DNA of 64,000 nucleotides, from contig CALJDU010000006.1 of assembly GCA_938024995.1 (NCBI GenBank), forward strand, positions 83,052-147,051, in the 5' to 3' direction. Of the stretch, positions 44,648-54,780 are shown piece by piece; position 1 is the stretch's first letter; each line of letters opens with the position of its first letter. The stretch is from an uncultured bacterium (GTDB taxonomy: Bacteria; Myxococcota_A; Polyangia; Polyangiales; Houyiibacteriaceae). The translations under genes and the position numbers were made by a program. Below the pieces are notes generated by a model. It did not search any database. It saw only the letters and a list, made by a program, of their open reading frames with translations, and had not been told where the DNA came from.

Positions 44648-44650
44648 AAT

Positions 44651-44761: not shown

Positions 44762-44837
44762 CCGCTTGTCGTCTAACGGTTTAGGACGCTCGTCTGATAC
44801 ACGGGCAATGGAAGTTCGATTCTTCCCAAGCGGACCA
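44762..44837 (+). tRNA. tRNA-Ile (anticodon GAU)
   Basis: ccgcttg/caagcgg acceptor; anticodon arm ctcgt-CTGATAC-acggg; T ggaag-TTCGATT-cttcc; CCA encoded. Confidence 0.6.
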
Positions 44838-44902
44838 TGTTCTGTTCGACGGAACGAAAAACGCGCCGCCGAGGCGACGCGTTCTACGCTCTTCCGAGCC
44901 GC

Positions 44903-45955
44903 CTACCAGCGCACGAAGCGCGAGATGCGGCGCACGCGGGAGTGGCTGGAGCCATCCGAGTCGAGCGAGAGCTCGGCGAGTGTGGTGGAGTTTACGTGCG
45001 GGCCCACCGAGCTGTCGGAGACCGGGCTGTTTGCGTCGGCGCCGAGGTTGTAGGACCAGCATGCGCTGTAGTGCTGAGTCACGCTTGCGTACGCGGTCGA
45101 GCAGTTCGTGGTCGGGGAAGTGTCGTCGTCGCGGTCGAACGAGGACCAGCCCGCGTTCACCTGCGAGTTGAAGACGCCCATCGAGCCCGAGACGAACGTC
45201 GCAGAGATGCGCATTCGAACGGGATCGAACGCGCTCATGTCCGCGCGGACCGCGATTCGCTCAACGCCTCGTCGGTCTTCGAACACATCCATGAGGTCTC
45301 CTGTCGCGGCGATCTCGTAGAGCGAGCCATCGTAGAAGTTGGAGTTGATGCTGGGGCGACCGCGTCGCTCGAGGCGATTGCCGTAGGGGATGCGCCAGAA
45401 CTGAAGGGTGTTCGTTCCGAGGAGCGAGTTGTAGAGAAGCGCCCAACCACCACCGTCGAGCTCTTGCTCGCAGTACACCTCGACGACTTCCGAGCCAAGC
45501 ATCAGCCAGGTCGGACCCGATCGCGTCAAGCCTGCGTCACGCGCGGCCGCACAGCTCGCGGCGGGGTTGTCCATCGTCAATCCAGGGAGCGCGGGACCGG
45601 CTGCACCCGGTGCGCCGTCCATTCCTGGAGTTCCGGCGGCACCTGGTTCACCCGGCGCACCATCCGCTCCGTTCGTTCCGTTGATGCCGTCGGTGCCGTT
45701 CATCCCGGGCATGCCGGGGGCGCCCGATTCGCCGTTACAGATGGCGACGATCTGCTCGCCCGCTTGTATCTCGGCACCACCGTTCGCGCATCGCGGATCA
45801 CCCATGGGGATCGGCGTGACGCTCGGTGCGGGACCTGGCGTACCCATCGTGCCCATCTCGCCCATCGCGCCCATCTCTCCAGGCGGACCTTCTGTGCCTG
45901 TGCAGGCAACCAACAGTGTGAGCGCCGCGAGGGCAACCAGCTTCAAGTTGTTCAT
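44903..45955 (-). CDS. Lipoprotein with collagen-like Gly-X-Y triple-helix repeats and C-terminal fibrinogen-related (FReD) domain (ficolin-like architecture)
   Basis: Signal MNNLKLVALAALTLLVAC|TG. Two interrupted GXY runs: GPPGEMGAMGEMGTMGTPGPAPS … GESGAPGMPGMNGTDGINGTNGADGAPGEPGAAGTPGMDGAPGAAGP (about 18 GXY triplets in total), then …YCEQELDGGGWALLYN…FWRIPYG…NCSTAYASVTQHYSACWSYNLGADANSP resembling the fibrinogen C-terminal domain. Start at internal ATG 45955. Confidence 0.6.
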   Translation of the reverse strand: MNNLKLVALAALTLLVACTGTEGPPGEMGAMGEMGTMGTPGPAPSVTPIPMGDPRCANGGAEIQAGEQIVAICNGESGAPGMPGMNGTDGINGTNGADGAPGEPGAAGTPGMDGAPGAAGPALPGLTMDNPAASCAAARDAGLTRSGPTWLMLGSEVVEVYCEQELDGGGWALLYNSLLGTNTLQFWRIPYGNRLERRGRPSINSNFYDGSLYEIAATGDLMDVFEDRRGVERIAVRADMSAFDPVRMRISATFVSGSMGVFNSQVNAGWSSFDRDDDTSPTTNCSTAYASVTQHYSACWSYNLGADANSPVSDSSVGPHVNSTTLAELSLDSDGSSHSRVRRISRFVRW

Positions 45956-46039
45956 GTCTAACGATCTCCGAAAACCGGGGATCGAAGCGTCCTCCAAATA
46001 GGTCACGTTGGTTCGATTTGACCTGCTCTGTACAGATTT

Positions 46040-46111
46040 GCTCTCGATGCTCGATGGACGAGCAACCGTCTTCTAAACGGCTCGCTGCGGGTTCGACTCC
46101 TGCCGAGAGCG
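46040..46111 (+). tRNA. tRNA-Arg (anticodon UCU)
   Basis: gctctcg/cgagagc; D gctc/gagc; loop CTTCTAA; T gcggg-TTCGACT-cctgc. Confidence 0.7.
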
Positions 46112-46115
46112 CCGG

Positions 46116-46189
46116 ACCTTCGTGGCTCAAAGGAAGAGCGCGCGTTTCCTAAACGCGTGATGAGAGTTCGAGTCTCTCCGAAGGTGCCA
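46116..46189 (+). tRNA. tRNA-Arg (anticodon CCU)
   Basis: accttcg/cgaaggt; D gctc/gagc; anticodon arm cgcgt-TTCCTAA-acgcg; T gagag-TTCGAGT-ctctc; CCA encoded. Confidence 0.75.
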
Positions 46190-46262
46190 ACGATCTGGTG
46201 GCTCTACGCGCAGCGCTATCGCTTCGCTCACGGGCTTGCTTGCAAGCTCATCAAGTTCTTTA

Positions 46263-46335
46263 CGCCGGGCTCTGGGAAAGCTGGTTGGTTTCCAAATCCG
46301 ACTGCAGGCGAGGTTCAACTCCTCGACTGTGTTTT
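46263..46335 (+). pseudogene. tRNA-Trp-like pseudogene (CCA anticodon loop, degraded acceptor/D-arm)
   Basis: Near-identical to the 46467-46541 copy but with a broken acceptor 3' strand and a T·T in the anticodon stem. Confidence 0.3.
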
Positions 46336-46412
46336 TTGGAGGGTCTGTTCGGACCCTCCCTCCCAACGAACAAGTAGTTGGGAGCCTCCCTCCTACGTTC
46401 GCTTCGCTCAGT
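46333..46412. repeat. Array repeat family copy (hairpin + tail)
   Basis: ttggagggtctgttcggaccctccctcccaacgaacaagtagttgggagcctccctcctacgttcgcttcgctcag. Confidence 0.8.
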
Positions 46413-46466
46413 CGGATTCGCTTCGCTCATGGCTTGCTTGCACGCAGCCGTCAGCACCTTTTACGC

Positions 46467-46541
46467 CGGGCTCTGGGAAAGCTGGTTGGACTCCAAATCC
46501 GACTGCAGGCGAGGTTCAACTCCTCGACGGCGTGCCGCGCT
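46467..46541 (+). pseudogene. tRNA-Trp-like element (anticodon CCA), non-canonical D-arm; possible pseudogene
   Basis: Acceptor acgccgg/acggcgt (6/7 bp); anticodon arm ttgga-CTCCAAA-tccga; T cgagg-TTCAACT-cctcg; no foldable D stem. Confidence 0.3.
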
Positions 46542-46567
46542 CAGATGAGCGTTCCTTTGCAGTGATG

Positions 46568-46636
46568 AGTGGTTCTGGGGAGGGTTCATACCCCTCCCTT
46601 CGTCAGTTCGATTCTGACCGCTGCATCTGAGTTTCT
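46568..46636 (+). pseudogene. tRNA-Met-like element (anticodon CAU) with truncated D-arm
   Basis: Acceptor tgcagtg/cgctgca; 7-bp anticodon helix with loop TTCATAC; T gtcag-TTCGATT-ctgac; 5' half is 4 nt short. Confidence 0.3.
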
Positions 46637-46710
46637 TGGAGGGTCTATCCGACCCTCCCTCCCAACGAGCAAGTAGTTGGGAGCCTCCCTCTTTTGTTCG
46701 CTTCGCTCAG
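46632..46710. repeat. Array repeat family copy
   Basis: ttggagggtctatccgaccctccctcccaacgagcaagtagttgggagcctccctcttttgttcgcttcgctcag. Confidence 0.8.
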
Positions 46711-46847
46711 CGGGTTCGCTTCGCTCACGTCGTGCTCGCTGGCGTCAGCTCGCGAGCAGGAGAGCAAAAAACTGTCGGTCGTTCGTCGACCATGGCGGCA
46801 CGGCGGGCCGTCGCGTGCATCGGTGCGAAAGCAACGGTGCGCGCTTT

Positions 46848-46919
46848 GCCTTTCAAGCGTAGATGGCGACGCCCTCCGCTCGTAACGGGGAGAGCTGGGT
46901 TCAAGTCCCAGGAAAGGCT
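46848..46919 (+). tRNA. tRNA-Thr (anticodon CGU)
   Basis: gcctttc/gaaaggc; D gcgt/acgc; anticodon arm ctccg-CTCGTAA-cgggg; T ctggg-TTCAAGT-cccag. Confidence 0.7.
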
Positions 46920-46926
46920 CTGAGTA

Positions 46927-47003
46927 TTTTGGAGGGGCTGTCCGCCCCTCCCTCCCAACGAACAAGTAGTTGGGAGCCTCCCACCCATGTTCGCTTCGCT
47001 CAA
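46927..47003. repeat. Array repeat family copy (ggagggg-ctgtccg-cccctcc variant)
   Basis: Followed directly by MITE-like element Y (46990-47100). Confidence 0.8.
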
Positions 47004-47110
47004 TATTCTTTGTTCCGCGCCGCCGGCGCTGACGCCGCTCGGTCTTCGCTTCGCTCCGGACCTCGCGCCTACGCGCCTGCTCGGAACCAATATCGTTCGC
47101 TTCGCGAACT
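46985..47110. repeat. MITE-like element Y (reverse-complement copy of 21377-21470)
   Basis: ~95% identity over ~95 bp to the rc of the 21.4-kb copy; imperfect inverted termini. Confidence 0.55.
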
Positions 47111-47254
47111 CGGCGGCGTACTTCTGGAGGGGCTGCCGGCCTTCACCACCACGCGAACTCGCCGCCGTCTTTCGCGTTGCGGTTTTGCTTTGCGGTTTTG
47201 CTTTGCGGTTGCGTCGCATGTCGCCTCAAGCGTTCGTTGCTCTTGCCTCTCAAG

Positions 47255-47325
47255 CGTAGATAGCGACGCGCTTGGCTTGTAACTGAGAGAGCTGGGCGCA
47301 CGTCCCAGGAGAGGCTCTGTTTGTG
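47255..47325 (+). pseudogene. Degenerate duplicate of tRNA-Thr(CGU) (T-loop and anticodon arm mutated)
   Basis: caagcgtagatagcgacgc…agctgggcgcacgtcccagg aligns to 46851-46919, but the T-loop is cgcacgt and the anticodon arm is lost. Confidence 0.3.
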
Positions 47326-47354
47326 TTCGCGTTGCCGCTCGCGGCAACGCTTTT

Positions 47355-47425
47355 GCGGGTGTCGTCTAACGGTAAGACACCGGTCTTCCAAACCGTGAAT
47401 GAGGGTTCGATCCCCTTCTCCCGCT
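47355..47425 (+). tRNA. tRNA-Gly (anticodon UCC)
   Basis: gcgggtg…ctcccgc-T-CC; loop CTTCCAA; T gaggg-TTCGATC-ccctt; close to canonical bacterial Gly-UCC. Confidence 0.65.
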
Positions 47426-47590
47426 CCGATCGCGCCGGGCTTAGCAACTCGGCAGGTGTTCGTGACTCGTTGACTCGCTGAGTTTTTGCGTCTGCGATCA
47501 CTGGGAGCTCTGTTCCTCGCACGGGCGGCGTGCGGGCTTGTGCAGAGTCTCTCTCCTTCGCGCATCCAGCTCACGTTGCGATGCGCCCAT

Positions 47591-47667
47591 GACGCGTTGG
47601 TCTAGTTGGCAAGGACGTCTGATTCTCAATCAGAAGGTCACGGGTTCGATCCCCGTACGCGTCACCA
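47591..47667 (+). tRNA. tRNA-Glu (anticodon CUC)
   Basis: gacgcgt/acgcgtc; D gtc-tagttggcaa-gga (Glu-type D-arm); anticodon arm tctga-TTCTCAA-tcaga; CCA encoded. Confidence 0.75.
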
Positions 47668-47672
47668 AACAT

Positions 47673-47745
47673 ACTGCGTTGCGCATCTGGGATGCGGCTC
47701 GGTTGTCTCCCGAGTGAGACGGGTTCGATTCCCGTACGCAGTGCC
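47673..47745 (+). tRNA. tRNA-Asp (anticodon GUC), copy 1
   Basis: actgcgt/acgcagt; D cgca/tgcg; anticodon arm ctcgg-TTGTCTC-ccgag (U37 unusual); T acggg-TTCGATT-cccgt. Confidence 0.55.
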
Positions 47746-47771
47746 GCGTGAGAGCGCTGTTCGAGATACTT

Positions 47772-47845
47772 GCTGCGTTGTGCATCTGGGATGCAGACCC
47801 ACTGTCTATGGGTTGAGACGGGTTCAATTCCCGTACGTAGCGCCA
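47772..47845 (+). tRNA. tRNA-Asp (anticodon GUC), copy 2 (diverged paralog)
   Basis: gctgcgt/acgtagc; D tgca/tgca; anticodon arm accca-CTGTCTA-tgggt; T-loop TTCAATT; CCA encoded. Confidence 0.55.
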
Positions 47846-47873
47846 CCACGTTCGCAACACGCGAGCAGGGTCT

Positions 47874-47947
47874 ACGGCGATGGTCCAACGGAAAGATCCA
47901 TGGTTGCCAGCCACGAGATAGGGGTTCGATTCCCCTTCGCCGTACCA
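47874..47947 (+). tRNA. tRNA-Gly (anticodon GCC), odd D-arm
   Basis: acggcga/tcgccgt; anticodon arm catgg-TTGCCAG-ccacg; T agggg-TTCGATT-cccct; CCA encoded. Confidence 0.5.
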
Positions 47948-47951
47948 AACG

Positions 47952-48027
47952 TTTTGGAGGGTCAGTCGGACCCTCCCTCCCAACGGCTCTAGTTGGAAGC
48001 CACCCTCCTACGTTCGCTTCGCTCAGA
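47952..48027. repeat. Array repeat family copy
   Basis: ttggagggtcagtcggaccctccctcccaacggctctagttggaagccaccctcctacgttcgcttcgctcag. Confidence 0.8.
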
Positions 48028-48095
48028 GGATTCGCTTCGCTCATCTGCTTGCTCGCAGGGAGCGTGTCACGCGAAGCGTTCGCTGGAGGTTTCTT

Positions 48096-48182
48096 GGAAG
48101 GAGAATCGGCTAGGAGCCGGACTGGATTGCTAATCCATGTGTGCGTCTGTTGGCGCATGGGGATCGAGACCTCTTCCTTCCT
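48096..48182 (+). tRNA. tRNA-Ser-like (anticodon GCU), class II, non-canonical D-hairpin and T-loop
   Basis: Acceptor ggaagga/tccttcc perfect; 5-bp D hairpin cggct-agg-agccg; anticodon arm tgga-TTGCTAA-tcca; variable-arm hairpin tgcg/cgca; T-loop ATCGAGA lacks TΨC. Confidence 0.35.
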
Positions 48183-48187
48183 CCTTT

Positions 48188-48346
48188 TTATTGGAGGGTC
48201 TGTTCGGACCCTCCCTCCAAGTAAGTAAATGACTTGGAGCCTCCCTCCCACGTTCGCTTCGCTCTGTTTTTTGGAGGGTCAATCGGACCCTCCCTCCAAG
48301 TAAGTAAATGACTTGGAGCCTCCCTCCCACGTTCGCTTCGCTCTGA
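48188..48346. repeat. Two tandem copies of array repeat family
   Basis: 48188-48266 and 48268-48346; hairpin loops tgttcg vs aatcg. Confidence 0.8.
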
Positions 48347-48417
48347 CTCGCTCCGCTCGTCTTTGCGTGCTCGCGTGCATGGCAACGTTCGTTCTGGCCT
48401 CGCGAGAGGCAACACTT

Positions 48418-48490
48418 GGTGGTCTCGCACAGGTGTGTCCGCGCGGATGTGACCCGCGTCGGCAACGGGTTCAAGTCCCGCCGATCACCC
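48418..48490 (+). tRNA. tRNA-His-like (anticodon GUG), copy 1; lacks canonical G-1
   Basis: ggtggtc/gatcacc-C; anticodon arm cgcgg-ATGTGAC-ccgcg perfect; T (a)cggg-TTCAAGT-cccg; short D-loop. Confidence 0.4.
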
Positions 48491-48536
48491 CACTGTTCAC
48501 AGTTCACAACTGCTCTCCGAATTTCGGTGAGCACCC

Positions 48537-48607
48537 GGGCCTGTATTTCAACGGGAGAATGCTTGTTTCGCACGCAGGCGATGAGGGTTCGATTCCCTCC
48601 TGGTCCA
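48537..48607 (+). tRNA. tRNA-Ala (anticodon CGC) with G3·U70
   Basis: gggcctg/ctggtcc gives G3·U70 (the Ala identity pair) and U6·U67; D gttc/gaat-like; loop TTCGCAC; T gaggg-TTCGATT-ccctc. Confidence 0.6.
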
Positions 48608-48650
48608 CTGTCGCTTCGTCGCTCGCGTCGAAGCGAAGTTCGTTTCACTT

Positions 48651-48724
48651 GGTGGTCGCGCACAGGTGTGTCCGCGCGGATGTGACCCGCGTCGGCGTTC
48701 GGGTTCAAGTCCCGCCGATCACCC
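48651..48724 (+). tRNA. tRNA-His-like (anticodon GUG), copy 2
   Basis: Same structure as 48418-48490 with point differences; no CCA. Confidence 0.35.
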
Positions 48725-48863
48725 CGGGCTCTTCGGAGTCAACCTCAGGCTGAGGGCTCAGTAGGGAGCTTCCCGATTTGGACTCGGGCGGTGCAGGTGC
48801 AACTCCTGTCAGCTTGACCGGTGCGCCGCGTCTTCGTTCGACGAGATGCGGTGCGCTTGATCC

Positions 48864-48936
48864 TGGGCATGTAGTTCAACGGGAGAATGTCTGTCTTGCA
48901 CACAGCGGATGAGGGTTCGATCCCCTCCTTGTCCAC
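48864..48936 (+). tRNA. tRNA-Ala (anticodon UGC) with G3·U70
   Basis: gggcatg/cttgtcc; compensatory C5-G68 to A5-U68 change versus the CGC paralog; loop CTTGCAC; T gaggg-TTCGATC-ccctc. Confidence 0.6.
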
Positions 48937-49129
48937 CGGTTTTCTAGGGTCTTTTTTCGAAGACCCTCTCCGCTTCGCGGATTCACCCAAAACGTTCGCT
49001 TCGCTCTCTGCGCGCCCGCGTTAGCCAAAAGTCGTCCGCTCTGGTCGCAGCGCTCCCGGCGCTCCAGACGTTTTGGCGTCGCGGAGCTTGCTGTCTCAAT
49101 CTGTTGGGTCGTCTTCGAAAGACCCGTTT

Positions 49130-49200
49130 GCCCTTGCAGCACGATGGTCGTGCACTCCTCCGGTACAGGAGCGGAACGGGTTCGATTCCCGTCGAGGGCT
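49130..49200 (+). tRNA. tRNA-Thr (anticodon GGU)
   Basis: gcccttg/cgagggc; D gcac/gtgc; anticodon arm ctcct-CCGGTAC-aggag; T acggg-TTCGATT-cccgt. Confidence 0.65.
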
Positions 49201-49205
49201 CCGTG

Positions 49206-49284
49206 TTTTTTGGAGGGGCTGTCCGCCCCTCCCTCCAAACGAGCAAGTAGTTTGGAGCCTCCCTCCCATGTTCGCTTCGCTCAG
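49206..49284. repeat. Array repeat family copy (start of 240-bp tandem unit)
   Basis: ttggaggggctgtccgcccctccctccaaacgagcaagtagtttggagcctccctcccatgttcgcttcgctcag. Confidence 0.8.
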
Positions 49285-49366
49285 TATCGTTCGCTTCGCG
49301 AACTCGGATCCGTCTTTCGGGTTGCCTGGTTCGCCGGGCTGCAGGGGCAGAGCGTTCTCTGCTCTC

Positions 49367-49438
49367 GCGGGGTTTGTAGTCTGGGACTGCGCCACTCTTA
49401 CAAAGTGATTCAGCAGGGTTCGATTCCCTGACTCCGCA
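49367..49438 (+). tRNA. tRNA-Val (anticodon UAC), copy 1
   Basis: gcggggt/actccgc; D gtag/ctgc; anticodon arm ccact-CTTACAA-agtga; T caggg-TTCGATT-ccctg. Confidence 0.7.
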
Positions 49439-49602
49439 CCGCTGTGCTTTTGGAGGGGCTGTCCGCCCCTCCCTCCAAACGAGCAAGTAGTTTGGAGCCT
49501 CCCTCCCGTGTTCGCTCAGTATCGTTCGCTTCGCGAACTCGGCTCCGTCTTTCGGGTTGCCTGGTTCGCTGGGCTGCAGGGGGCAGAGCGTTCTTCGACT
49601 TC

Positions 49603-49674
49603 GCGGGGTTTGTAGTCTGGGACTGCGCCACTCTTACAAAGTGATTCAGCAGGGTTCGATTCCCTGACCCCGCA
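49603..49674 (+). tRNA. tRNA-Val (anticodon UAC), copy 2 (tandem duplicate)
   Basis: Identical to copy 1 except acceptor accccgc (perfect pairing); part of a ~240-bp tandem repeat. Confidence 0.7.
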
Positions 49675-49863
49675 CCGCTGTGTTTTTGGAGGGGCTGTCC
49701 GCCCTCCAAACGACTCTAGTTTGGAGCCTCCCTCCCATGTTCGCTTCGCTCAGTATCGTTCGCTTCGCGAACTCGGCTCCGTCTTTCGGGTTACCGGGTT
49801 CGACGGCCGCGCGGGAGCAGAGCGCTCCTCGACTTCGTCCTTCGTCGCTCTCTTCGTCTTCTT

Positions 49864-49938
49864 CTGGGCCTGTAGCTAAGCGGGAAAGCAGCCGGCTTTT
49901 AACCGGCAGATCGTGAGTTCAAATCTCACCGGGCCTAC
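49864..49938 (+). tRNA. tRNA-Lys (anticodon UUU)
   Basis: gggcctg/cgggcct; anticodon arm gccgg-CTTTTAA-ccggc; T gtgag-TTCAAAT-ctcac; CCA encoded. Confidence 0.7.
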
Positions 49939-49944
49939 CAATAA

Positions 49945-50020
49945 ATACTCTCGAAGCTCAACTGGATGAGCGCTCGGCTACGGACTGAGAGGGTGCAGGT
50001 TCGACTCCTGCCGAGAGTGC
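49945..50020 (+). tRNA. tRNA-Arg (anticodon ACG)
   Basis: actctcg/cgagagt; D gctc/gagc; anticodon arm ctcgg-CTACGGA-ctgag; T gcagg-TTCGACT-cctgc; CCA encoded. Confidence 0.8.
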
Positions 50021-50093
50021 CATGTCTCTTTACCCAAGTAAGCGGAGCAAGCAAGAAGGCGAGTCACGCGAAGACGTCAGCCCAGTTCGCGAA

Positions 50094-50180
50094 GCGAACG
50101 ATACTGAGCGAAGCGAACATGGGAGGGAGGCTCCAAACCATTTACTTGTTTGGAGGGAGGGGCGGACAGCCCCTCCAGAA
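50094..50180. repeat. Array repeat family copy, inverted orientation
   Basis: gagcgaagcgaacatgggagggaggctccaaacc…ggagggaggggcggacagcccctccag. Confidence 0.75.
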
Positions 50181-50186
50181 AGCATT

Positions 50187-50259
50187 GTGCTGGAGTACAG
50201 GCGCGACCGTCTCGGCTGCAACCCGATATGTGTGAGTTCAATTCTCACCCAGCACTCCA
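50187..50259 (+). tRNA. tRNA-Cys (anticodon GCA)
   Basis: gtgctgg/ccagcac-T-CCA; loop CTGCAAC; T gtgag-TTCAATT-ctcac; compact D region. Confidence 0.55.
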
Positions 50260-50260
50260 A

Positions 50261-50334
50261 GCTCCCATAGTGAAACGGAATCACGCTGGTCTCCGAAACC
50301 GGTAGTCCAAGTTCGAGCCTTGGTGGGAGTGCCA
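50261..50334 (+). tRNA. tRNA-Arg (anticodon CCG)
   Basis: gctccca/tgggagt; D gtga/tcac; anticodon arm ctggt-CTCCGAA-accgg; T ccaag-TTCGAGC-cttgg; CCA encoded. Confidence 0.7.
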
Positions 50335-50351
50335 ATCACGCAGTGAATTAA

Positions 50352-50421
50352 CGCTATGCGCCGCGGCCGGCAGACGCCTCTCATACGGGCGAGCTCGAAG
50401 GTTCAACTCCCTCCATAGCGA
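50352..50421 (+). tRNA. tRNA-Met (anticodon CAU), weak D-arm
   Basis: cgctatg/catagcg perfect; anticodon arm cgcct-CTCATAC-gggcg; T-loop TTCAACT. Confidence 0.45.
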
Positions 50422-50453
50422 CTGGGTCTCCGGACCTTAACATCCGAGTGTAG

Positions 50454-50530
50454 CTCAGCCTGGAAGAGCACACCGTTCGGGACGGTGAGGTCGCAGGTTC
50501 GGATCCTGTCACTCGGACCATTCTATCCGC
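50454..50530 (+). tRNA. tRNA-Pro (anticodon CGG)
   Basis: Fully canonical: ccgagtg / gctc-agcctggaa-gagc / caccg-TTCGGGA-cggtg / gcagg-TTCGGAT-cctgt / cactcgg-A-CCA. Confidence 0.85.
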
Positions 50531-50565
50531 GTCGCAAACATCACTGGCGTCGCGAGCACGTCGAT

Positions 50566-50660
50566 GAGCGAAGCGAATCCGCTGAGCGAAGCGAACATGG
50601 GAGGGAGGCTCCCAACTACTTGCTCGTTGGGAGGGAGGGGCGGACAGCCCCTCCAAAAAG
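50566..50660. repeat. Array repeat family copy, inverted orientation
   Basis: gagcgaagcgaatccgctgagcgaagcgaacatgggagggaggctcccaactacttgctcgttgggagggaggggcggacagcccctccaa. Confidence 0.75.
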
Positions 50661-50665
50661 CACAG

Positions 50666-50741
50666 CAGGGTGAAGTCTTGTCGGGAAGACGCTCGTCTGG
50701 GAGGCGAGAGGTTGCTGGTTCAACTCCAGCCACCCTGACCA
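50666..50741 (+). tRNA. tRNA-Pro (anticodon GGG)
   Basis: cagggtg/caccctg; anticodon arm ctcgt-CTGGGAG-gcgag; T gctgg-TTCAACT-ccagc; CCA encoded. Confidence 0.8.
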
Positions 50742-50746
50742 ATTTG

Positions 50747-50820
50747 GTTTCCATAGTGAAAAGGAATCACACGAGCTTGCGGAGCTCGCATTCTAGGTTC
50801 GAGTCCTAGTGGAAACGCCA
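50747..50820 (+). tRNA. tRNA-Arg (anticodon GCG)
   Basis: gtttcca/tggaaac; D gtga/tcac (same D-arm as Arg-CCG); anticodon arm cgagc-TTGCGGA-gctcg; T ctagg-TTCGAGT-cctag; CCA encoded. Confidence 0.7.
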
Positions 50821-50881
50821 ATCGAGCCTGCTCGAGTCGACGCACGCTTGGAGAGAGCCGGCGAGCATGAGAGCAAGCTGC

Positions 50882-51050
50882 TCGCTGATGCGGACTAGGG
50901 ACGCGCAAAGCGCGAACCGAAGGGAGCATCAATCACGCGGCGCGATGGGGGTGAATGCCGAAGGCAGAGGGGGGAACGCCCTGCAAGCGGTCGTGGTGAT
51001 GCGGACAAGGTACGCGCAAAGCGCGAACCGAAGGGAGCATCGCGCACTGC
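50882..51050. repeat. Two direct ~50-bp repeats (gatgcggac.agg.acgcgcaaagcgcgaaccgaagggagcatc) separated by ~70 bp
   Basis: 50882-50931 and 50999-51049 differ at about 3 positions. Confidence 0.6.
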
Positions 51051-51124
51051 CGCGCGCAGCAGAGCGAAGCGAACGGCGGGAAGCGCGAAGCGCTGGGGTC
51101 TGCGACTCAGACCCCATAGATTTA

Positions 51125-51205
51125 GCCTAGGTGGCGGAACGGTTTACGCAGCGGTCTCAGACTCCGTGCCCTCAAGGGATGCAGGTTCGACTCCTGTCCT
51201 AGGTA
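51125..51205 (+). tRNA. tRNA-Leu (anticodon CAG), class II
   Basis: gcctagg/cctaggt; 3-bp D stem gcg/cgc; loop CTCAGAC; variable-arm hairpin ccc-tcaa-ggg; T gcagg-TTCGACT-cctgt; A73. Confidence 0.6.
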
Positions 51206-51337
51206 CCGCGCTCAGCGATGAGCGTTACACGATCGAAATGGTTCGGTCGTGGTCAGTCGCGCTCGGATCCTCTCCGAGCCGATGCTGTTCGCGTTTGCGA
51301 GCGGCGCCATTTGGCGCGCGCGTGACCACGTGCGCGC

Positions 51338-51880
51338 ATGAAACGCGCAAACCGCGCGAGGAGGTGGCCCATGCGCACGCTCGTACTGGACCAAGGTTAC
51401 CAACCGCACCGCATCGTCTCCTGGGAGAAGGCGGTCACCATGCTCTACGTCGGAAAGGCCGACCTCGTGGAGCACTACGACGACGAGATCCGCTCGACCA
51501 GCATGACGATGTTCATGCCGGCGGTCGTTCGGCTCACCCGCGGGCTCAAGTACCGCAAGAAGTCGATCAAGTTCTCGCGGCTCAACGTCATGATGCGTGA
51601 CGGATTCTCCTGCCAGTACTGCGGCACCGAGATGAAGATGCGCGACCTCACGTACGACCACGTCCTGCCGCGCGCGCGCGGAGGGAAGACCACGTGGACG
51701 AACATCGTGACCGCGTGCCGTGACTGCAACGAGCAGAAGGCCGACCGCACTCCGAAGGAGGCAGGGATGCCCCTTCTGAAGAAGCCCATCAAGCCGCTCT
51801 GGCTGCCGACAGGATCGTTTCACGTAGACGACCTCCGGCTCCCCGAGACCTGGCGGAACTGGGTGTCGTGGGCTGCCTAA
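51338..51880 (+). CDS. HNH endonuclease
   Basis: HNH motif YDHVLPRARGGKTTWTNIVTACRDCNEQK (His-Asn-His plus a Cys zinc finger); sits inside the tRNA array. Confidence 0.75.
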   Translation: MKRANRARRWPMRTLVLDQGYQPHRIVSWEKAVTMLYVGKADLVEHYDDEIRSTSMTMFMPAVVRLTRGLKYRKKSIKFSRLNVMMRDGFSCQYCGTEMKMRDLTYDHVLPRARGGKTTWTNIVTACRDCNEQKADRTPKEAGMPLLKKPIKPLWLPTGSFHVDDLRLPETWRNWVSWAA

Positions 51881-51928
51881 AGCAGCACTTGTTCTCGCTC
51901 GCTTGAGCTTGTCTCGAGCGAGCATCCA

Positions 51929-52002
51929 CACCACTGTGGCCCAACTGGAAGAGGCGTCTGACTAAGGATCAGAAGGTTGTGAGTTCGAATCTCACCAGTG
52001 GT
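51929..52002 (+). tRNA. Class-I-length tRNA with Leu anticodon AAG and A73 (unusual)
   Basis: accactg/cagtggt; D gcc(c)/ggc; perfect anticodon arm tctga-CTAAGGA-tcaga; 5-nt variable loop; T gtgag-TTCGAAT-ctcac. Confidence 0.5.
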
Positions 52003-52006
52003 ACCG

Positions 52007-52079
52007 AACCATCGTGGCCCAACGGAAGAGGCACCTGTTTCAAACTCAGGGTGTTGTGAGTTCGACTCTCACCGATGGT
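52007..52079 (+). tRNA. Class-I-length tRNA with Leu anticodon CAA and A73 (paralog of previous)
   Basis: accatcg/cgatggt; same D-arm; anticodon arm cctgt-TTCAAAC-tcagg (U·U closing pair); T gtgag-TTCGACT-ctcac. Confidence 0.45.
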
Positions 52080-52087
52080 ACCGATTA

Positions 52088-52400
52088 CTTGGGGGGATTT
52101 TTCGATCCCCCTCTCTCCCGTTGGTCGACTCACCCCAAACGTTCGCTCCGCTCTGGCTGCGCGCGAAGTGCGCGCCGCTCCTCGACCGGTCGCTTTGCTC
52201 CCCATCTCGTTGCGTCACCACGTCGCTTGCTCTTGTTTCCTAAGGGGATTTTTCGAGACCCTTCTCGGCTTCGCCGATTCATCCCAAACGTTCGCTTCGC
52301 TCTGCTGCGCACACAAATGCGCGACGCTCTCTTCGGTCAGCGCTTTGCGCTTCCCTTGTCGTGTCACCAATTGTGTTTGCTTCATGCTTGCTCGCTCGTC
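52088..52400. repeat. Two ~150-bp direct repeats of hairpin + conserved tail (ggggattttcgatcccc… / ggggatttttcgagaccc… …ccaaacgttcgct(c/t)cgctctg(g)ctgcgc)
   Basis: 52088-52240 and 52245-52400 share ~70% identity, including the palindromic head and acgttcgcttcgctc tail. Confidence 0.6.
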
Positions 52401-52515
52401 TCTGCACCTTTGGTGCGTTCGACTTGCTTTGCGGCTCCGAAACTACGCGTCGCATTCCGCGGCGCTTCGCGTTCGTGTTCTTTCTGTTGCCGCGGGTGGA
52501 CGCGAACGTGAATCT

Positions 52516-52599
52516 CGAAGGTAATTTGATCTGGAGATCAACGCCGCCTTGAAAGCGGAGGGAGCCGAGAGGCTTGGAGTTCAATTCTTCTACCTTCGG
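52516..52599 (+). tRNA. tRNA-Ser (anticodon UGA), class II with unusual 5-bp D-hairpin
   Basis: cgaaggt/accttcg perfect; D hairpin tgatc-tgga-gatca; anticodon arm ccgc-CTTGAAA-gcgg; variable hairpin gcc-gaga-ggc; T-loop TTCAATT. Confidence 0.45.
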
Positions 52600-52604
52600 C
52601 AAGT

Positions 52605-52688
52605 GGAAGAGGATCTGATCCGGGATCAGGGCCGAGTGGAAATCGGTGCGCGCCTTCTCGGCGTGGGGTTCGACTCCTCTCTCTTCCT
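52605..52688 (+). tRNA. tRNA-Ser (anticodon GGA), class II with unusual D-hairpin
   Basis: ggaagag/ctcttcc perfect; D hairpin ctgat-ccggg-atcag; anticodon arm ccga-GTGGAAA-tcgg; 6-bp variable hairpin cgcgcc/ggcgtg; T gggg-TTCGACT-cctc. Confidence 0.45.
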
Positions 52689-52859
52689 CCCTTCCCAACA
52701 ACAACCGTCGCGAGCCCTCGCGCGGCAGCCACCGCGGAGCGAGCGTTCAAACACCAAAGCGAAGCGACGTGTTTGGACTGTCGCGGAGCGGGCGAACGAA
52801 TGTGAGCGTGGGTGAATGCGCGAAGCGCAGAGGGGCGCAATCGCCCCTTCAAACAACAT

Positions 52860-52947
52860 CGAAGACAAACTGATCTGGGATCAGGCCTGCCTCGAAAACA
52901 GTGCGCGCCTTGATCGGCGTGAGGTTCGATTCCTCTGTCTTCGGCCA
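52860..52947 (+). tRNA. tRNA-Ser (anticodon CGA), class II with unusual D-hairpin
   Basis: cgaagac/gtcttcg-G-CCA; D hairpin ctgatc-tggg-gatcag; anticodon stem ctg(c)/(a)cag with compensatory C-G to U-A change versus the GGA paralog; loop CTCGAAA; T gagg-TTCGATT-cctc. Confidence 0.45.
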
Positions 52948-53060
52948 CTGCCCGCGGAGCTCGGCAACGAGACCTGCAAGAGCTCCTCCCGTCACTCGCG
53001 GTTCACCGGCACCTCATCAGGTCCGGTCGCTTCGCACCCACGCGCTCATCTGCGCTCTTT

Positions 53061-53137
53061 GTCCTTGTCGTCTAATGGTTCAGGATTTTCCGGCTTTCAA
53101 CCGGTGGATGCGGGTTCGAATCCCGCCGGGGACGCCA
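53061..53137 (+). tRNA. tRNA-Glu (anticodon UUC)
   Basis: gtccttg…cggggac-G-CCA; D gtct-aatggttc-agga; loop CTTTCAA; T gcggg-TTCGAAT-cccgc; closely matches the E. coli Glu pattern. Confidence 0.8.
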
Positions 53138-53188
53138 TTCTCATCGCGCCATCGCGCATCACTTTTCACCGCTCACCTTGAGGTCGTC

Positions 53189-54589
53189 ATGGAATCGCTC
53201 GTCCACGCCGCGCCGACTGAGGTGCGCAAACGAAATGAACACACGTCCCCAGAGTCGCGCGTCGCGCTTTACGCGGCGATCGGCAGCCCGCGTTCCATTC
53301 TCAGAGCGCGACCCACAACGGAAGAGCGACGGATCGAAGACGCGGAAGTGGTCTCGGCCGCCGCGCGTGTGTCCCCCAAGTTCCTCGCTGCCCACGCGCT
53401 CGCCTCGCGCGCGCTCGGGGAGTCTTCCCGTGCGCCCGCGCTCTTGTGCGCGCTCCTCTCTCATCGGGATCCGGCTCTCCTCGCGGAGGTCTTCCCATGC
53501 GTCATCAATACGCCCGCGCTCGTGCGTCGCTTCGTCGGCGTTGTGCGCTCGGGCGTGAGCGGTCGTCGCTCGCTCGGGAGCGCGCCGAAACGCTTGATCG
53601 CGCGTTGGCTGCGATCGCTGTCAGACGACGCGGTGCTGACGAACGGCGCGAAGCTGCGCGACGTGATCCGCTTGTCTCATCCGCGACCTCGGTCCCGTGC
53701 CCGTGCGGCGCTGTATCGGCTTCTGCTCTCACGTCCATACGATGCCCATCGCTTGCCGAGATTGGCGAGCATGTGGGTCGCGTCCCAGAGCGGTGGCGAT
53801 ATCGACGAGCTCCCGCTCTCGCTCTGTCGCGTTAAGAAGGTCGGGATCCGCGCTCCGAGCGAGTATCTCCCTGCAGTCGCGCGAGCGTCTGCGCATGAGC
53901 TCGTGACGTCGCTCGATTGGCTGCGCGGGTTCGCCGACGACGCGCTCGTGGCCGCGGTCGCGACGCGACTTCGTGAGGCACGGGCCGAAGATGTGCGTCC
54001 CTACGCGCTGCTCCGTCTCCTTCGCGCGACGAGCTCACCCCGCGAGTGGGTGGACGCTGGGTTTTCACTTCTCGATCGCGCGAGTGAACGATCGAGCGAG
54101 GTTCGCGGGACGCTCGTCGTGGACACGAGCGCTTCGATGACCGCGCCCCTCTTCGCTACGCGAGGTGAGCGTCGAGATCCGATCGATGGACTGGATGTCG
54201 CGGCGCTCCTCATGACGACCCTCCGGGGACCTCATTTGCACGTGGTCGACTTCGCGGGTCGCCCGCTCTCGTCCGAGGGCGGCGTCCAAGATGTTCGCGG
54301 TCGTCTGGGGAATCTCCTCAGCTCGCCGCGTTCTGTCTCAAGCGCGATCGAGCAGCGGAGCGGAGAAATGATCGTGGTCACCGACGACGTCGGCTCGGAG
54401 CGCGCCTTGGCGCGTCTTGGTCAACGTCATGGCGCCGCGCTCAGCGTCGTCGACCTGTGCCCGACGAGCGTGGGTCAAGTGGCCGTCCGCTCCACCCGTT
54501 TCGCGGGTTTCAACGACATCTCGCTTCAGGTCCTGATGGACCGCGCCCAGCAAAAGACCTCTGTCCAGGAGGCCCGCTGGGCGTCTTAA
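53189..54589 (+). CDS. rsr: Ro60/TROVE-domain protein with C-terminal vWA domain (Rsr, Ro sixty-related RNA-binding protein)
   Basis: Recalled TROVE-like motifs: GRRSLGSAPKRLIARWL resembles GWGRGLR.AVA.WY, and NGAKLRDVIRLSHPRP resembles GWSHRDLLRLAHPKP. C-terminal MIDAS motif in LVVDTSASMTAP. Start ATG 53189 (an alternative TTG at 53177); the longer ORF 52901.. overlaps the tRNAs. Confidence 0.65.
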   Translation: MESLVHAAPTEVRKRNEHTSPESRVALYAAIGSPRSILRARPTTEERRIEDAEVVSAAARVSPKFLAAHALASRALGESSRAPALLCALLSHRDPALLAEVFPCVINTPALVRRFVGVVRSGVSGRRSLGSAPKRLIARWLRSLSDDAVLTNGAKLRDVIRLSHPRPRSRARAALYRLLLSRPYDAHRLPRLASMWVASQSGGDIDELPLSLCRVKKVGIRAPSEYLPAVARASAHELVTSLDWLRGFADDALVAAVATRLREARAEDVRPYALLRLLRATSSPREWVDAGFSLLDRASERSSEVRGTLVVDTSASMTAPLFATRGERRDPIDGLDVAALLMTTLRGPHLHVVDFAGRPLSSEGGVQDVRGRLGNLLSSPRSVSSAIEQRSGEMIVVTDDVGSERALARLGQRHGAALSVVDLCPTSVGQVAVRSTRFAGFNDISLQVLMDRAQQKTSVQEARWAS

Positions 54590-54706
54590 ACACCTCACGT
54601 CTCTTTTCCGTCGCGCCGCCCGCGATGGCTTGGATCCGCGTGAGTCACTTGAGAGCACTCCTGGATGGCGTTGAGATCGCGCCCGTGCTAATCCCGTCCC
54701 CGATTT

Positions 54707-54780
54707 TCCGGAGTCGTCTAATGGCAGGACAGCGGACTTTGAATCCGTGAATGGTGGTTCGAATCCACCCTCTGGAACCA
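54707..54780 (+). tRNA. tRNA-Gln (anticodon UUG)
   Basis: U1-A72 acceptor tccggag/ctctgga-A-CCA; anticodon arm gcgga-CTTTGAA-tccgt; T ggtgg-TTCGAAT-ccacc. Confidence 0.8.

What the first reader, a model, noticed from the sequence alone, without database searches (positions are those of the whole stretch)
51929..52079. Two class-I-length tRNAs carrying leucine anticodons (AAG and CAA) with A73, immediately downstream of the HNH endonuclease gene
Bacterial tRNA-Leu is normally class II with a long variable arm. These two paralogs (accactg… and accatcg…) have 5-nt variable loops but anticodons AAG and CAA and the Leu-type discriminator A73. A34 is itself rare in bacterial tRNAs outside tRNA-Arg(ACG). 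They could be Leu isoacceptors of unusual shape, mis-identity tRNAs used for recoding, or decoys.
Basis: seen in the sequence. Interest (0 to 1): 0.6.

Follow-up and report, generated by a model that had tools for sequence, protein, structure and literature searches.

The report
Short-armed leucine tRNAs in tRNA array
Two real leucine tRNA genes that lack the usual long extra arm sit in a 36-gene tRNA cluster on a bacterial chromosome. They belong to a widespread "short" leucine-tRNA family already seen in phage and bacterial tRNA clusters, so this is a new example of a known oddity, not a new kind of molecule.

Summary
Window 51930-52003 (anticodon AAG) and 52008-52080 (anticodon CAA) are well-formed cloverleaf tRNAs with 5-nt variable loops and A73, and they start 49 nt after an HNH endonuclease gene.

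They are best read as true leucine isoacceptors, not recoding tRNAs or decoys.
- They carry the E. coli-defined LeuRS identity set: A73, A14, A15:U48, G18G19 and A20a, plus a class-II-style 3-bp D stem.
- An anticodon-blind search for their D-arm and spacing in IMG/VR found 135 tRNAs, of which 128 carry Leu anticodons (UAA, UAG, CAA, AAG, GAG, CAG).
- The cloverleaf register is fixed by strong covariation: 99% of cells paired, and 19 of 20 pairs show compensatory change.
- Relatives in cultured phages (Felix-O1-like, Gordonia) are annotated tRNA-Leu. Published tRNAscan-SE isotype models score the phage Sf14 copies highest as Leu.

Published precedents exist. Streptomyces coelicolor has a type I tRNA-Leu(CAA) that is leucylated in vitro. 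Mycobacterial tRNA clusters carry an HNH gene and a short-loop tRNA-Leu.

AAG is also recurrent: 21 copies in my loci, never alongside GAG. Its loop CUAAGGA fits the broadened TadA consensus. Because CUC makes up 57% of local Leu codons, I infer that A34 becomes I34, but this was not tested.

The array lies about 5 kb from dnaA, so it is chromosomal.

Verdict: new member of a known kind, of modest interest.

The parts
51930..52003 (+). Type I (5-nt variable loop) tRNA-Leu, anticodon AAG (51964-51966), discriminator A73 at 52003, followed by CC (52004-52005)
   Evidence: ARAGORN. Rfam RF00005 59.9 bits. Cloverleaf is close to the MFE, -20.8 vs -22.6 kcal/mol. Leu_I HMM 56.4 bits vs next-best Arg 37.9. 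54.2 bits with the pattern-independent Leu_I HMM.
52008..52080 (+). Type I tRNA-Leu, anticodon CAA (52041-52043), A73 at 52080, followed by CC; has a U31.U39 mismatch
   Evidence: ARAGORN. Rfam RF00005 51.0 bits. Cloverleaf -21.1 vs MFE -21.7 kcal/mol. Leu_I HMM 49.6 bits vs Arg 32.2. 48.3 bits with the pattern-independent HMM.
51338..51880 (+). HNH endonuclease ORF (180 aa) embedded in the tRNA array, 49 nt upstream of tRNA-Leu(AAG)
   Evidence: Pfam HNH_5 4.6e-18 and HNH 1.8e-14. PHROG 16726 HNH endonuclease 1.3e-36. A 66%-identical DNA stretch lies next to tRNAs in viral contig L033.
51125..51205 (+). Canonical class II tRNA-Leu(CAG), 83 nt with a long variable arm. It is the third Leu tRNA of the array.
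   Evidence: ARAGORN. Rfam 48.7 bits. Top score with the Leu_II HMM, 39.1 bits. Its D arm UG-GCG-G-AACGGUUU-A-CGC has the same layout as the two short tRNAs.
43596..54780 (+). tRNA array unit: 34 ARAGORN tRNAs plus 2 found only by Rfam (Cys GCA at 50187-50256, Ser UGA at 52515-52599), all on the + strand, about 3.2 tRNA genes per kb
   Evidence: GC falls to 0.59-0.63 in the array from 0.63-0.69 in the flanks.

Best explanation
Both genes encode genuine leucine-accepting tRNAs of the 'type I' (short variable loop) tRNA-Leu family. This family travels in phage-derived or mobile tRNA arrays and also occurs in some actinomycete chromosomes.

Proposed mechanism:
- Bacterial LeuRS does not read the anticodon or, in E. 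coli, the long arm. It reads A73 and the elbow/hinge architecture (A14, A15:U48, G18G19, A20a). Both tRNAs keep all of these on a class-II-style 3-bp D stem, so the host LeuRS would charge them with leucine (inferred).
- tRNA-Leu(CAA) reads UUG.
- tRNA-Leu(AAG) most likely has A34 deaminated to inosine by a host TadA that tolerates A35 (inferred). It would then read CUU, CUC and CUA.
- Together with the neighbouring class II tRNA-Leu(CAG), the array would supply a three-tRNA set covering about 99% of the Leu codons used in the surrounding genes.

The two genes are tandem paralogs, co-oriented and 4 nt apart. They lie in an accessory 36-tRNA array that contains a homing-type HNH endonuclease and sits about 5 kb from dnaA on a bacterial chromosome.
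For: Shown here:
1. Both are real cloverleafs.
2. Alignment A1 of 54 family members is almost gapless. U8, A14, A15, G18, G19, A22, A35, G53, U54, C56, A58, C61 and A73 are invariant, and A20a, U33 and U48 are at least 90% conserved.
3. In A1, 99.2% of cells are paired and 19 of 20 pairs show compensatory change, against 33-42% paired when partners are slid. This fixes the anticodon register.
4. The anticodon-blind motif CCAAY(N)GGAAGAG + 28-31 nt + GTTCRA found 135 tRNAs in IMG/VR. Of these, 128 carry Leu anticodons: taa 45, tag 36, caa 19, aag 16, gag 11, cag 1.
5. 170 of 185 unique short tRNA-Leu have A73.
6. In anticodon-masked isotype HMMs, both tRNAs score highest as short Leu by about 17-18 bits. 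This holds when the model is built only from 69 sequences not selected by the motif.
7. A blastn search of 50,697 phage genomes hits 131 records. In 37 of the 40 listed hits the feature under the match is annotated tRNA-Leu, and the other 3 are unannotated. In Gordonia phage Boopy these are 75-76 nt, and in Shigella phage Sf14 77-79 nt.
8. The acceptor stems of the two paralogs differ by two fully compensated pairs.
9. Leu codon use in 15 window genes is CTC 57%, CTG 19%, TTG 13%, CTT 9%, CTA 1.3%, TTA 0.8%.
10. Twenty loci carry Leu(aag) and none also carries Leu(gag), Fisher p=0.023. AAG loops are CUAAGGA in 13 cases and CUAAGAA in 6.

From the literature:
- E. coli Leu identity is A73, A14, A15:U48, G18G19 and A20a, not the anticodon or long arm (PMC9976931).
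- S. coelicolor type I tRNA-Leu(CAA), with variable loop ACAGC, is leucylated by its LeuRS (PMC6614811).
- The short tRNA-Leu TAG, CAA and TAA of phage Sf14 score highest as Leu in tRNAscan-SE isotype models (PMC12482277, Table 2).
- tRNA-Leu(AAG) is fully edited to I34 by S. pyogenes TadA, with consensus YUAMGRA. The window loop CUAAGGA fits this consensus (PMC11472039).
Against: - No charging, expression or modification data exist for these two genes.
- E. coli LeuRS failed to charge the S. coelicolor type I tRNA-Leu(CAA) (PMC6614811), so not every bacterial LeuRS accepts armless tRNA-Leu. The host LeuRS is unknown here.
- E. coli TadA does not edit tRNA-Leu(AAG) (PMC11472039). The window encodes no deaminase. 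I34 therefore rests only on codon usage, loop consensus and the AAG/GAG exclusion, which is significant only at p=0.02 and comes from truncated loci.
- tRNA 2 has a U31.U39 mismatch, and its cloverleaf is not the single-sequence MFE.
- The short-Leu HMM training sets come from loci retrieved with a motif taken from these very tRNAs.
- Several other tRNAs in this array look degenerate, so the array as a whole may be partly decaying.
Confidence: 0.8

Rival explanations
1. The two genes are non-functional passengers or decoys. They could be relics of a horizontally acquired phage array that are transcribed little or not charged. Alternatively they could be RNAs kept to soak up tRNA-targeting nucleases or toxins rather than to decode.
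For: The host LeuRS may not accept armless tRNA-Leu, as E. coli LeuRS did not charge the Streptomyces one (PMC6614811). Several array tRNAs score poorly against any isotype model. CCA is only partly encoded. No sigma-70-like promoter was seen nearby. tRNA arrays have been proposed as anti-defence elements (PMC12803027 abstract; PMC10264068).
Against: All universally conserved tRNA positions and all LeuRS identity positions are intact. The two paralogs differ by compensated stem changes. Their Rfam scores are in the upper to middle range of the array. Family-wide covariation shows sustained selection on the cloverleaf. The anticodon set matches local codon demand. A pure decoy would not need Leu-only anticodons.
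Confidence: 0.13
2. They are mis-identity tRNAs. A class I body would be charged with an amino acid other than leucine but carry Leu anticodons, recoding CUN or UUG codons, as allo-tRNA-Ser or tRNA-Pro with an Ala anticodon do.
For: The shape is class I, unlike normal bacterial tRNA-Leu. Overall sequence resembles the array's tRNA-Arg(CCU), and Arg is the second-best isotype model. Natural missense tRNAs with Leu anticodons exist (PMC5389517).
Against: - There is no G3:U70 (Ala) and no long arm with G73/U73 (Ser).
- Per the tRNA identity literature, ArgRS needs C35, but A35 is invariant in the family.
- By general knowledge, most other synthetases read their own anticodon.
- The scaffold is tied to Leu anticodons from both Leu codon boxes in 128 of 135 cases. 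Six-fold Leu degeneracy is the simplest explanation for that spread.
- A73, A15:U48 and A20a are all conserved.
- Sf14 relatives score as Leu in tRNAscan-SE (PMC12482277).
- CUC is the commonest Leu codon here, so reassigning it would be proteome-wide and toxic.
Confidence: 0.04
3. The anticodons are mis-assigned because the RNAs adopt a different fold or register, so these are not Leu-anticodon tRNAs at all.
For: The single-sequence MFE of tRNA 2 is not the cloverleaf, and neither fold is significantly more stable than shuffled sequence (z = -1.15 and -0.69).
Against: The cloverleaf lies within 0.6-1.8 kcal/mol of the MFE. Two independent tools give the same register. All five anticodon-stem pairs covary across 54 homologs, with 97% of cells paired, while slid registers drop to about 40%. 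U33 is at least 90% conserved and A35 is invariant.
Confidence: 0.01

Closest known systems
Streptomyces coelicolor type I tRNA-Leu(CAA) (Fan et al. 2019, PMC6614811)
   Same: A bacterial tRNA-Leu with a 5-nt variable loop, co-existing with class II tRNA-Leu in one cell. It has the same CAA anticodon as window tRNA 2. Its variable loop ACAGC resembles the family's common ACAGU. It is leucylated in vitro by its LeuRS. A14:U8 is important.
   Different: It is an essential core chromosomal gene, not part of an array. It has C48, whereas the window tRNAs keep U48 and so the E. coli-type A15:U48 pair. In that system A73 was not an identity element. I could not retrieve its full sequence, so homology to the window tRNAs was not directly tested.
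Short tRNA-Leu of cultured phages: Ounavirinae (Shigella phage Sf14, Felix-O1-like) and Gordonia Forzavirus (Boopy, Forza)
   Same: They are 75-79 nt tRNA-Leu (TAG, CAA, TAA) inside phage tRNA arrays. They are 76-82% identical to the window tRNAs and share the D-arm motif, A73 and a 5-nt variable loop. GenBank annotates them as tRNA-Leu. Sf14 copies score highest as Leu in tRNAscan-SE (PMC12482277).
   Different: They are phage-borne, whereas these are chromosomal. Neither of the two phages examined (Boopy, Sf14) carries an AAG anticodon. No closer relative than about 84% identity was found for the window genes.
Horizontally acquired tRNA gene clusters of Mycobacterium mucogenicum and relatives (Behra et al. 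2019, PMC6582537) and prokaryotic 'tRNA array units' (Tran et al. 2016, PMC4758250)
   Same: A dense one-strand tRNA cluster on a bacterial chromosome with an embedded HNH endonuclease gene. [quoted passage not shown] The cluster tRNAs differ structurally from core tRNAs.
   Different: The host is different and unidentified (GC about 65%). The short Leu anticodons here are AAG and CAA rather than TAG. Expression was not tested here.
tRNA-Leu(AAG), edited to IAG, of Lactobacillales (S. pyogenes, O. oeni; PMC11472039, PMC13249217)
   Same: A34 in a Leu anticodon. The loop fits YUAMGRA. GAG is absent wherever AAG is present.
   Different: Those are class II (89 nt) core tRNAs in low-GC Firmicutes with a co-evolved TadA. 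Here the tRNA is class I, array-borne and in a high-GC genome, and editing is only inferred.
Animal mitochondrial tRNA-Leu
   Same: Type I shape. A73 and A14 are identity elements (PMC9976931).
   Different: It is organellar with reduced, floppy structures and a dedicated LeuRS. S. coelicolor LeuRS does not charge it (PMC6614811).

Membership tests
tRNA (Rfam RF00005) | Full-length cloverleaf match above the gathering score (29 bits), with U8, A14, G18G19, U33 and a GTTCRANYC T loop | tested here: met
   59.9 and 51.0 bits, model positions 1-71. ARAGORN agrees.
Type I (short-variable-loop) tRNA-Leu of phage/mobile arrays and actinomycetes | Variable loop of 5 nt and total length of about 73-77 nt before CCA | tested here: met
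   Variable loops are AGGUU and GUGUU. Lengths are 74 and 73 nt.
Type I (short-variable-loop) tRNA-Leu of phage/mobile arrays and actinomycetes | Leu anticodon with A35, in a register fixed by anticodon-stem covariation | tested here: met
   Anticodons are AAG and CAA. A35 is invariant in 54 homologs, and all 5 anticodon-stem pairs show compensatory changes.
Type I (short-variable-loop) tRNA-Leu of phage/mobile arrays and actinomycetes | Leu-type D arm (3-bp stem with a 13.22 non-pair, A14 A15, G18G19, A20a), U48 and A73 | tested here: met
   All are present in both tRNAs. They are invariant or at least 90% conserved in A1. A73 occurs in 170 of 185 family members. The motif predicts a Leu anticodon in 128 of 135 cases.
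Type I (short-variable-loop) tRNA-Leu of phage/mobile arrays and actinomycetes | Isotype-specific model assigns Leu | tested here: inconclusive
   tRNAscan-SE was not available. My own anticodon-masked HMMs give short Leu as the top score by 17-18 bits, including with a motif-independent training set. Published tRNAscan-SE scores exist only for Sf14 relatives (PMC12482277).
Type I (short-variable-loop) tRNA-Leu of phage/mobile arrays and actinomycetes | Leucylation by LeuRS | not testable with these tools
   Shown only for the S. coelicolor tRNA-Leu(CAA) (PMC6614811).
Canonical bacterial class II tRNA-Leu | Long variable arm (more than 10 nt, stem-loop) | tested here: not met
   The variable loops are 5 nt. 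The neighbouring tRNA-Leu(CAG) at 51125-51205 does have a long arm.
I34-containing tRNA-Leu (TadA substrate) | A34 in an anticodon loop matching YUAMGRA, with no GAG isoacceptor alongside | tested here: met
   The loop is CUAAGGA. There is no Leu(GAG) in the array by ARAGORN or Rfam. Across 20 AAG-bearing loci, none also has GAG. The rest of the genome was not seen.
I34-containing tRNA-Leu (TadA substrate) | A TadA able to deaminate A34 next to A35, and inosine actually present | not testable with these tools
   No CDA/TadA zinc motif was found in the six-frame translation of the window. The host tadA lies outside the window.
Mis-identity / missense tRNAs (allo-tRNA-Ser, G3:U70 Ala-type) | Long V-arm with G73/U73 and an 8/4 or 9/3 acceptor branch, or a G3:U70 pair | tested here: not met
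   The structure is 7/5 with a 5-nt variable loop, A73 and C3-G70.
Prokaryotic tRNA array unit (Tran et al. 2016) | At least 20 tRNA genes at 2 or more per kb | tested here: met
   36 tRNAs lie in 43596-54780 (11.2 kb), about 3.2 per kb. Definition is from the PMC4758250 abstract.

The most novel reading that the evidence does not exclude
The armless tRNA-Leu family may be more than a structural curiosity. Mobile tRNA arrays may carry a self-sufficient minimal leucine decoding set (IAG + CAG + CAA). Its AAG member would need A34-to-I34 editing in high-GC, non-Firmicute hosts, which implies unrecognised broad-specificity TadA enzymes or editing of array tRNAs. Loss of the variable arm may be an adaptation that keeps LeuRS recognition while escaping host or competitor factors that target class II tRNAs. 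No systematic description of this family, or of its class I AAG members, turned up in my six full-text searches of the open-access library.
Probability: 0.15. Interest if true: 0.55.

Novelty: new member of a known kind. Interest (0 to 1): 0.27.

Why it matters
On its own it matters little. It adds one more bacterial chromosome to the list of genomes carrying a phage-type tRNA array with short-armed tRNA-Leu genes and an HNH endonuclease.

Three points have wider use:
1. A simple, anticodon-independent D-arm signature marks the short tRNA-Leu family across phages, MAGs and actinomycetes. It predicted a Leu anticodon in 95% of cases here, which could help annotation.
2. tRNA-Leu(AAG) was the second commonest A34 tRNA in these arrays and never co-occurred with GAG. 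That makes I34 editing of mobile-element tRNAs a testable question.
3. These natural armless tRNA-Leu variants keep the E. coli-type A15:U48, A20a and A73 elements. They are convenient substrates for asking which LeuRS enzymes tolerate loss of the long arm.

Tried and rejected
- Megablast of the tRNA region and the whole array against INPHARED phages and PLSDB plasmids gave no match. tblastn of a neighbouring 667-aa ORF against phages gave no match.
- Exact look-up of the HNH product found nothing on record. The source taxon therefore stays unidentified.
- The single genome-contig scan, using the 19-nt D-arm motif, did not recover the source genome. About half of its 40 hits had no tRNA call and are probably chance matches.
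- A six-frame regex for the CDA/TadA zinc motif ([HC]AE...PCxxC) found nothing in the window.
- PHROG and Pfam scans of ORFs flanking the array found no phage structural, integrase or terminase genes. They found a DNA methyltransferase, a chorismate-binding enzyme, an acyltransferase and a full-length DnaA. I therefore dropped my initial assumption that the window was a phage genome.
- Single-sequence folding is uninformative for these tRNAs, with z-scores of -0.7 to -1.2.
- I considered an origin from the array's tRNA-Arg(CCU), which has a similar acceptor and D arm. I rejected it as an identity argument because C35 is absent and the Leu-family signal is much stronger.
- No sigma-70-like promoter was found near the pair. 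The terminator-like hits are weak.

Full report
OBSERVATION

ARAGORN finds 34 tRNA genes between 43596 and 54780, all on the + strand. They include tRNA-Leu(aag) at 51930-52005 and tRNA-Leu(caa) at 52008-52082. The Rfam tRNA model matches both over its full length, at 59.9 and 51.0 bits against a gathering score of 29.

Read by eye, each has:
- a 7-bp acceptor stem (ACCACUG/CAGUGGU and ACCAUCG/CGAUGGU);
- U8 and G9;
- a 3-bp D stem GCC/GGC flanked by a C13.A22 non-pair;
- a D loop AAC(U)GGAAG;
- a 5-bp anticodon stem, with one U31.U39 mismatch in the second tRNA;
- a 7-nt anticodon loop (CUAAGGA and UUCAAAC);
- a 5-nt variable loop (AGGUU and GUGUU);
- a standard T arm, A73, and then CC.

The cloverleaves lie 1.8 and 0.6 kcal/mol above the single-sequence minimum free energy. 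The ORF at 51338-51880 is an HNH endonuclease and ends 49 nt before the first tRNA.

CONTEXT

I first assumed the window was a phage genome, but it is not. It has about 65% GC and carries ordinary cellular genes:
- an MFS-acyltransferase fusion;
- an FAD-linked oxidase;
- FG-GAP/ASPIC proteins;
- a PMT_2 glycosyltransferase;
- a chorismate-binding enzyme directly upstream of the array;
- an aldo-keto reductase;
- a full-length DnaA (DnaA_N, Bac_DnaA, Bac_DnaA_C) at 60074-61504.

No phage structural genes or integrase were detected around the array. Exact protein look-ups place the window on a 289,398-bp contig held by NCBI and ENA, but I could not recover an organism name.

Rfam adds two tRNAs that ARAGORN missed: a tRNA-Cys(GCA) at 50187-50256 and a tRNA-Ser(UGA) at 52515-52599. 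That gives 36 tRNA genes in 11.2 kb. This meets the published definition of a prokaryotic tRNA array unit, which is at least 20 genes at 2 or more per kb (PMC4758250 abstract).

ARE THEY LEUCINE tRNAs? IDENTITY ELEMENTS

The D arm has the layout of bacterial class II tRNA-Leu. From my own recall of the sequence, E. coli tRNA-Leu(CAG) reads UG-GCG-G-AAUUGGUAG-A-CGC. The array's own class II tRNA-Leu(CAG) reads UG-GCG-G-AACGGUUU-A-CGC. The two short tRNAs read UG-GCC-C-AAC(U)GGAAG-A-GGC.

[quoted passage not shown] It also states that A15:U48, G18G19 and A20a are essential, and that A14 contributes (PMC9976931; PMC6614811 introduction). Both window tRNAs carry every one of these elements.

ARE THEY LEUCINE tRNAs? 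COMPARATIVE TEST

This test does not use the anticodon.
- A 19-nt D-arm motif taken from the two tRNAs hit five IMG/VR contigs. All five hits are short (73-77 nt) tRNAs in phage tRNA arrays, with anticodons UAA, UAG and CAA; neighbouring short Leu tRNAs in the same arrays add GAG.
- A looser motif, CCAAY(N)GGAAGAG followed by 28-31 nt and GTTCRA, enforces class I spacing.
- Of the 135 ARAGORN tRNAs matching the looser motif, 128 carry a Leu anticodon: taa 45, tag 36, caa 19, aag 16, gag 11, cag 1. Only 7 carry something else.

A scaffold that carries all Leu anticodons from both Leu codon boxes, and almost nothing else, is what a shared leucine identity predicts. A mis-identity tRNA would not give this pattern.

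Further family-level results:
- Among 185 unique short tRNA-Leu in these loci, 170 have A73.
- A 54-sequence alignment including the two window tRNAs has 74 columns and a single gapped column. U8, A14, A15, G18, G19, A22, A35, G53, U54, C56, A58, C61 and A73 are invariant. A20a, U33 and U48 are at least 90% conserved.
- On this alignment the cloverleaf pairs 99.2% of cells, and 19 of 20 pairs show changes on both sides. The covariation score is 1.06, against 0.24 in shuffles and 0.12-0.19 when partners are slid by 1-3 columns. This excludes an alternative register for the anticodon.

ARE THEY LEUCINE tRNAs? ISOTYPE-STYLE SCORING

tRNAscan-SE was not available. Instead I built anticodon-masked profile HMMs for each isotype from 1,338 unique phage-array tRNAs and scored all tRNAs in the window.
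- The two candidates gave the clearest assignments in the array. Short Leu scored 56.4 and 49.6 bits, against 37.9 and 32.2 bits for the runner-up, Arg.
- That training set was enriched by my motif, so I rebuilt the model from the 69 short tRNA-Leu that do not match the motif. The candidates still scored 54.2 and 48.3 bits, and the next best window tRNA scored 27.1.

Independently, a blastn search of 50,697 GenBank phage genomes hit 131 records. In 37 of the 40 listed hits the feature under the match is annotated tRNA-Leu, and in the other 3 nothing is annotated.
- Gordonia phage Boopy has tRNA-Leu of 75, 76 and 75 nt, plus one class II copy.
- Shigella phage Sf14 has tRNA-Leu TAG, CAA and TAA of 77-79 nt.
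- A published table of tRNAscan-SE 2 isotype scores for Sf14 shows Leu as the top model for all three, at 67.4, 49.1 and 60.2 (PMC12482277).

WHAT IS ALREADY KNOWN

- Fan et al. (PMC6614811) showed that S. coelicolor has a type I tRNA-Leu(CAA) with the 5-nt variable loop ACAGC. Its single LeuRS leucylates this tRNA, a 5-nt loop length is required, and E. coli LeuRS does not charge it.
- Behra et al. (PMC6582537) reported that horizontally acquired tRNA clusters in Mycobacterium mucogenicum relatives contain an HNH endonuclease gene. They also contain a tRNA-Leu(TAG) with a short variable loop, unlike the core copy. The cluster tRNAs they tested by Northern blot (two tRNA-Ile and one tRNA-Arg) are expressed.
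- My genome scan found the same D-arm motif in short tRNA-Leu genes of cultured actinomycetes (Dactylosporangium, Paractinoplanes, Luedemannella, Streptacidiphilus). It also found them in tRNA clusters of Micromonosporaceae, Pyrinomonadaceae, Myxococcales and other MAGs.

The phenomenon is therefore established, and the window adds one more instance. The closest relatives are only about 75-84% identical.

THE A34 ANTICODON

tRNA-Leu(AAG) is known in Lactobacillales. In S. pyogenes it is fully edited to I34 by a TadA with the broadened consensus YUAMGRA, and E. coli TadA does not edit it (PMC11472039; bioRxiv 10.64898/2026.05.15.725136). The window loop CUAAGGA fits that consensus.

In my loci:
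- Leu(AAG) is the second commonest A34 tRNA, with 21 copies (17 of them 80 nt or shorter), after Arg(ACG) with 39.
- Its loops are CUAAGGA in 13 cases and CUAAGAA in 6.
- None of the 20 loci that carry it also carries Leu(GAG), Fisher p=0.023.

In 15 genes of the window, CUC makes up 57% of Leu codons and CUU only 9%. An unmodified A34 would serve a minor codon poorly. An I34 would read CUU, CUC and CUA. Together with CAG and CAA, it would cover about 99% of Leu codons.

I therefore infer I34 formation, but this step is not shown. No deaminase motif occurs in the window, and the host tadA was not seen.

RIVALS

- Decoy or relic status cannot be ruled out from sequence. Against it stand intact identity and universal positions, compensated differences between the paralogs' acceptor stems, and family-wide purifying selection.
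- Mis-identity is disfavoured. There is no G3:U70 and no long arm with G73. A35 is invariant where ArgRS needs C35. The anticodon census is restricted to Leu.
- An alternative fold is excluded by covariation.

VERDICT

They are best explained as type I tRNA-Leu isoacceptors of a widespread array-borne family. The class is known from annotation and from two papers, so this is a new member of a known kind.

The residual novelty lies in two things. One is the untested I34 editing of an array-borne class I tRNA-Leu(AAG) in a high-GC genome. The other is that my literature searches found no systematic description of this family.

Noticed in passing
window 52515-52599 (+); also 52605-52690 and 52860-52947: A third tRNA-Ser (anticodon UGA) is missed by ARAGORN but hits Rfam tRNA-Sec at 53.3 bits (gathering score 47). 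All three Ser tRNAs of the array have a 6-bp D stem with a 4-nt loop. The one folded here has an 8-bp acceptor and a 4-bp T stem, and the other two appear to by inspection. This is the (8/4) allo-tRNA-like tRNA-Ser shape that Mukai et al. reported in phage tRNA clusters (PMC5389517).
   Followed up: partly
window 50187-50256 (+): An extra tRNA is called only by Rfam (31.3 bits, just above the gathering score). It has loop CUGCAAC (anticodon GCA, Cys), U73, an encoded CCA and a reduced D arm. With it, only His and Trp are missing from the array.
   Followed up: partly
window 60074-61504 (+): A full-length dnaA (DnaA_N, Bac_DnaA, Bac_DnaA_C) lies about 5.3 kb downstream of the last tRNA. The accessory array therefore sits next to the presumed chromosomal origin region. 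One mycobacterial tRNA cluster is also described as lying near oriC (PMC6582537).
   Followed up: no
window 52093-52390 (+): The spacer after tRNA-Leu(CAA) holds two roughly 150-nt tandem copies with 81-87% identity over the aligned cores. Each copy starts with GGGGATTTTTCGA. No tRNA or Rfam family matches them.
   Followed up: partly
window 49367-49440 and 49603-49676 (+); 47673-47745 and 47772-47845 (+): There are near-identical duplicated tRNA-Val(UAC) genes 236 nt apart and two tRNA-Asp(GUC) genes. Both Val copies and one Asp copy score better against the tRNA-Sec model than the general tRNA model in Rfam, which suggests non-standard stems.
   Followed up: no
window 49947-50022 and 50747-50820 (+): [quoted passage not shown] GCG is normally absent from bacteria that use ACG edited to ICG. 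Two viral loci (L077, L113) show the same pair together with Leu(AAG).
   Followed up: no
loci L008-L127 (IMG/VR): tRNA-Thr(AGU), another A34 tRNA that is rare in bacteria, occurs 12 times in these phage arrays.
   Followed up: no
window 44762-44837, 48746-48819, 50352-50422 (+): Several array tRNAs (Ile GAU, Pro UGG, Met CAU, Val UAC) score weakly or best against the wrong isotype in my anticodon-masked HMMs. The published Sf14 analysis reported the same kind of isotype-anticodon inconsistency. The Ile(GAU) gene has a Glu/Gly-like D arm.
   Followed up: no
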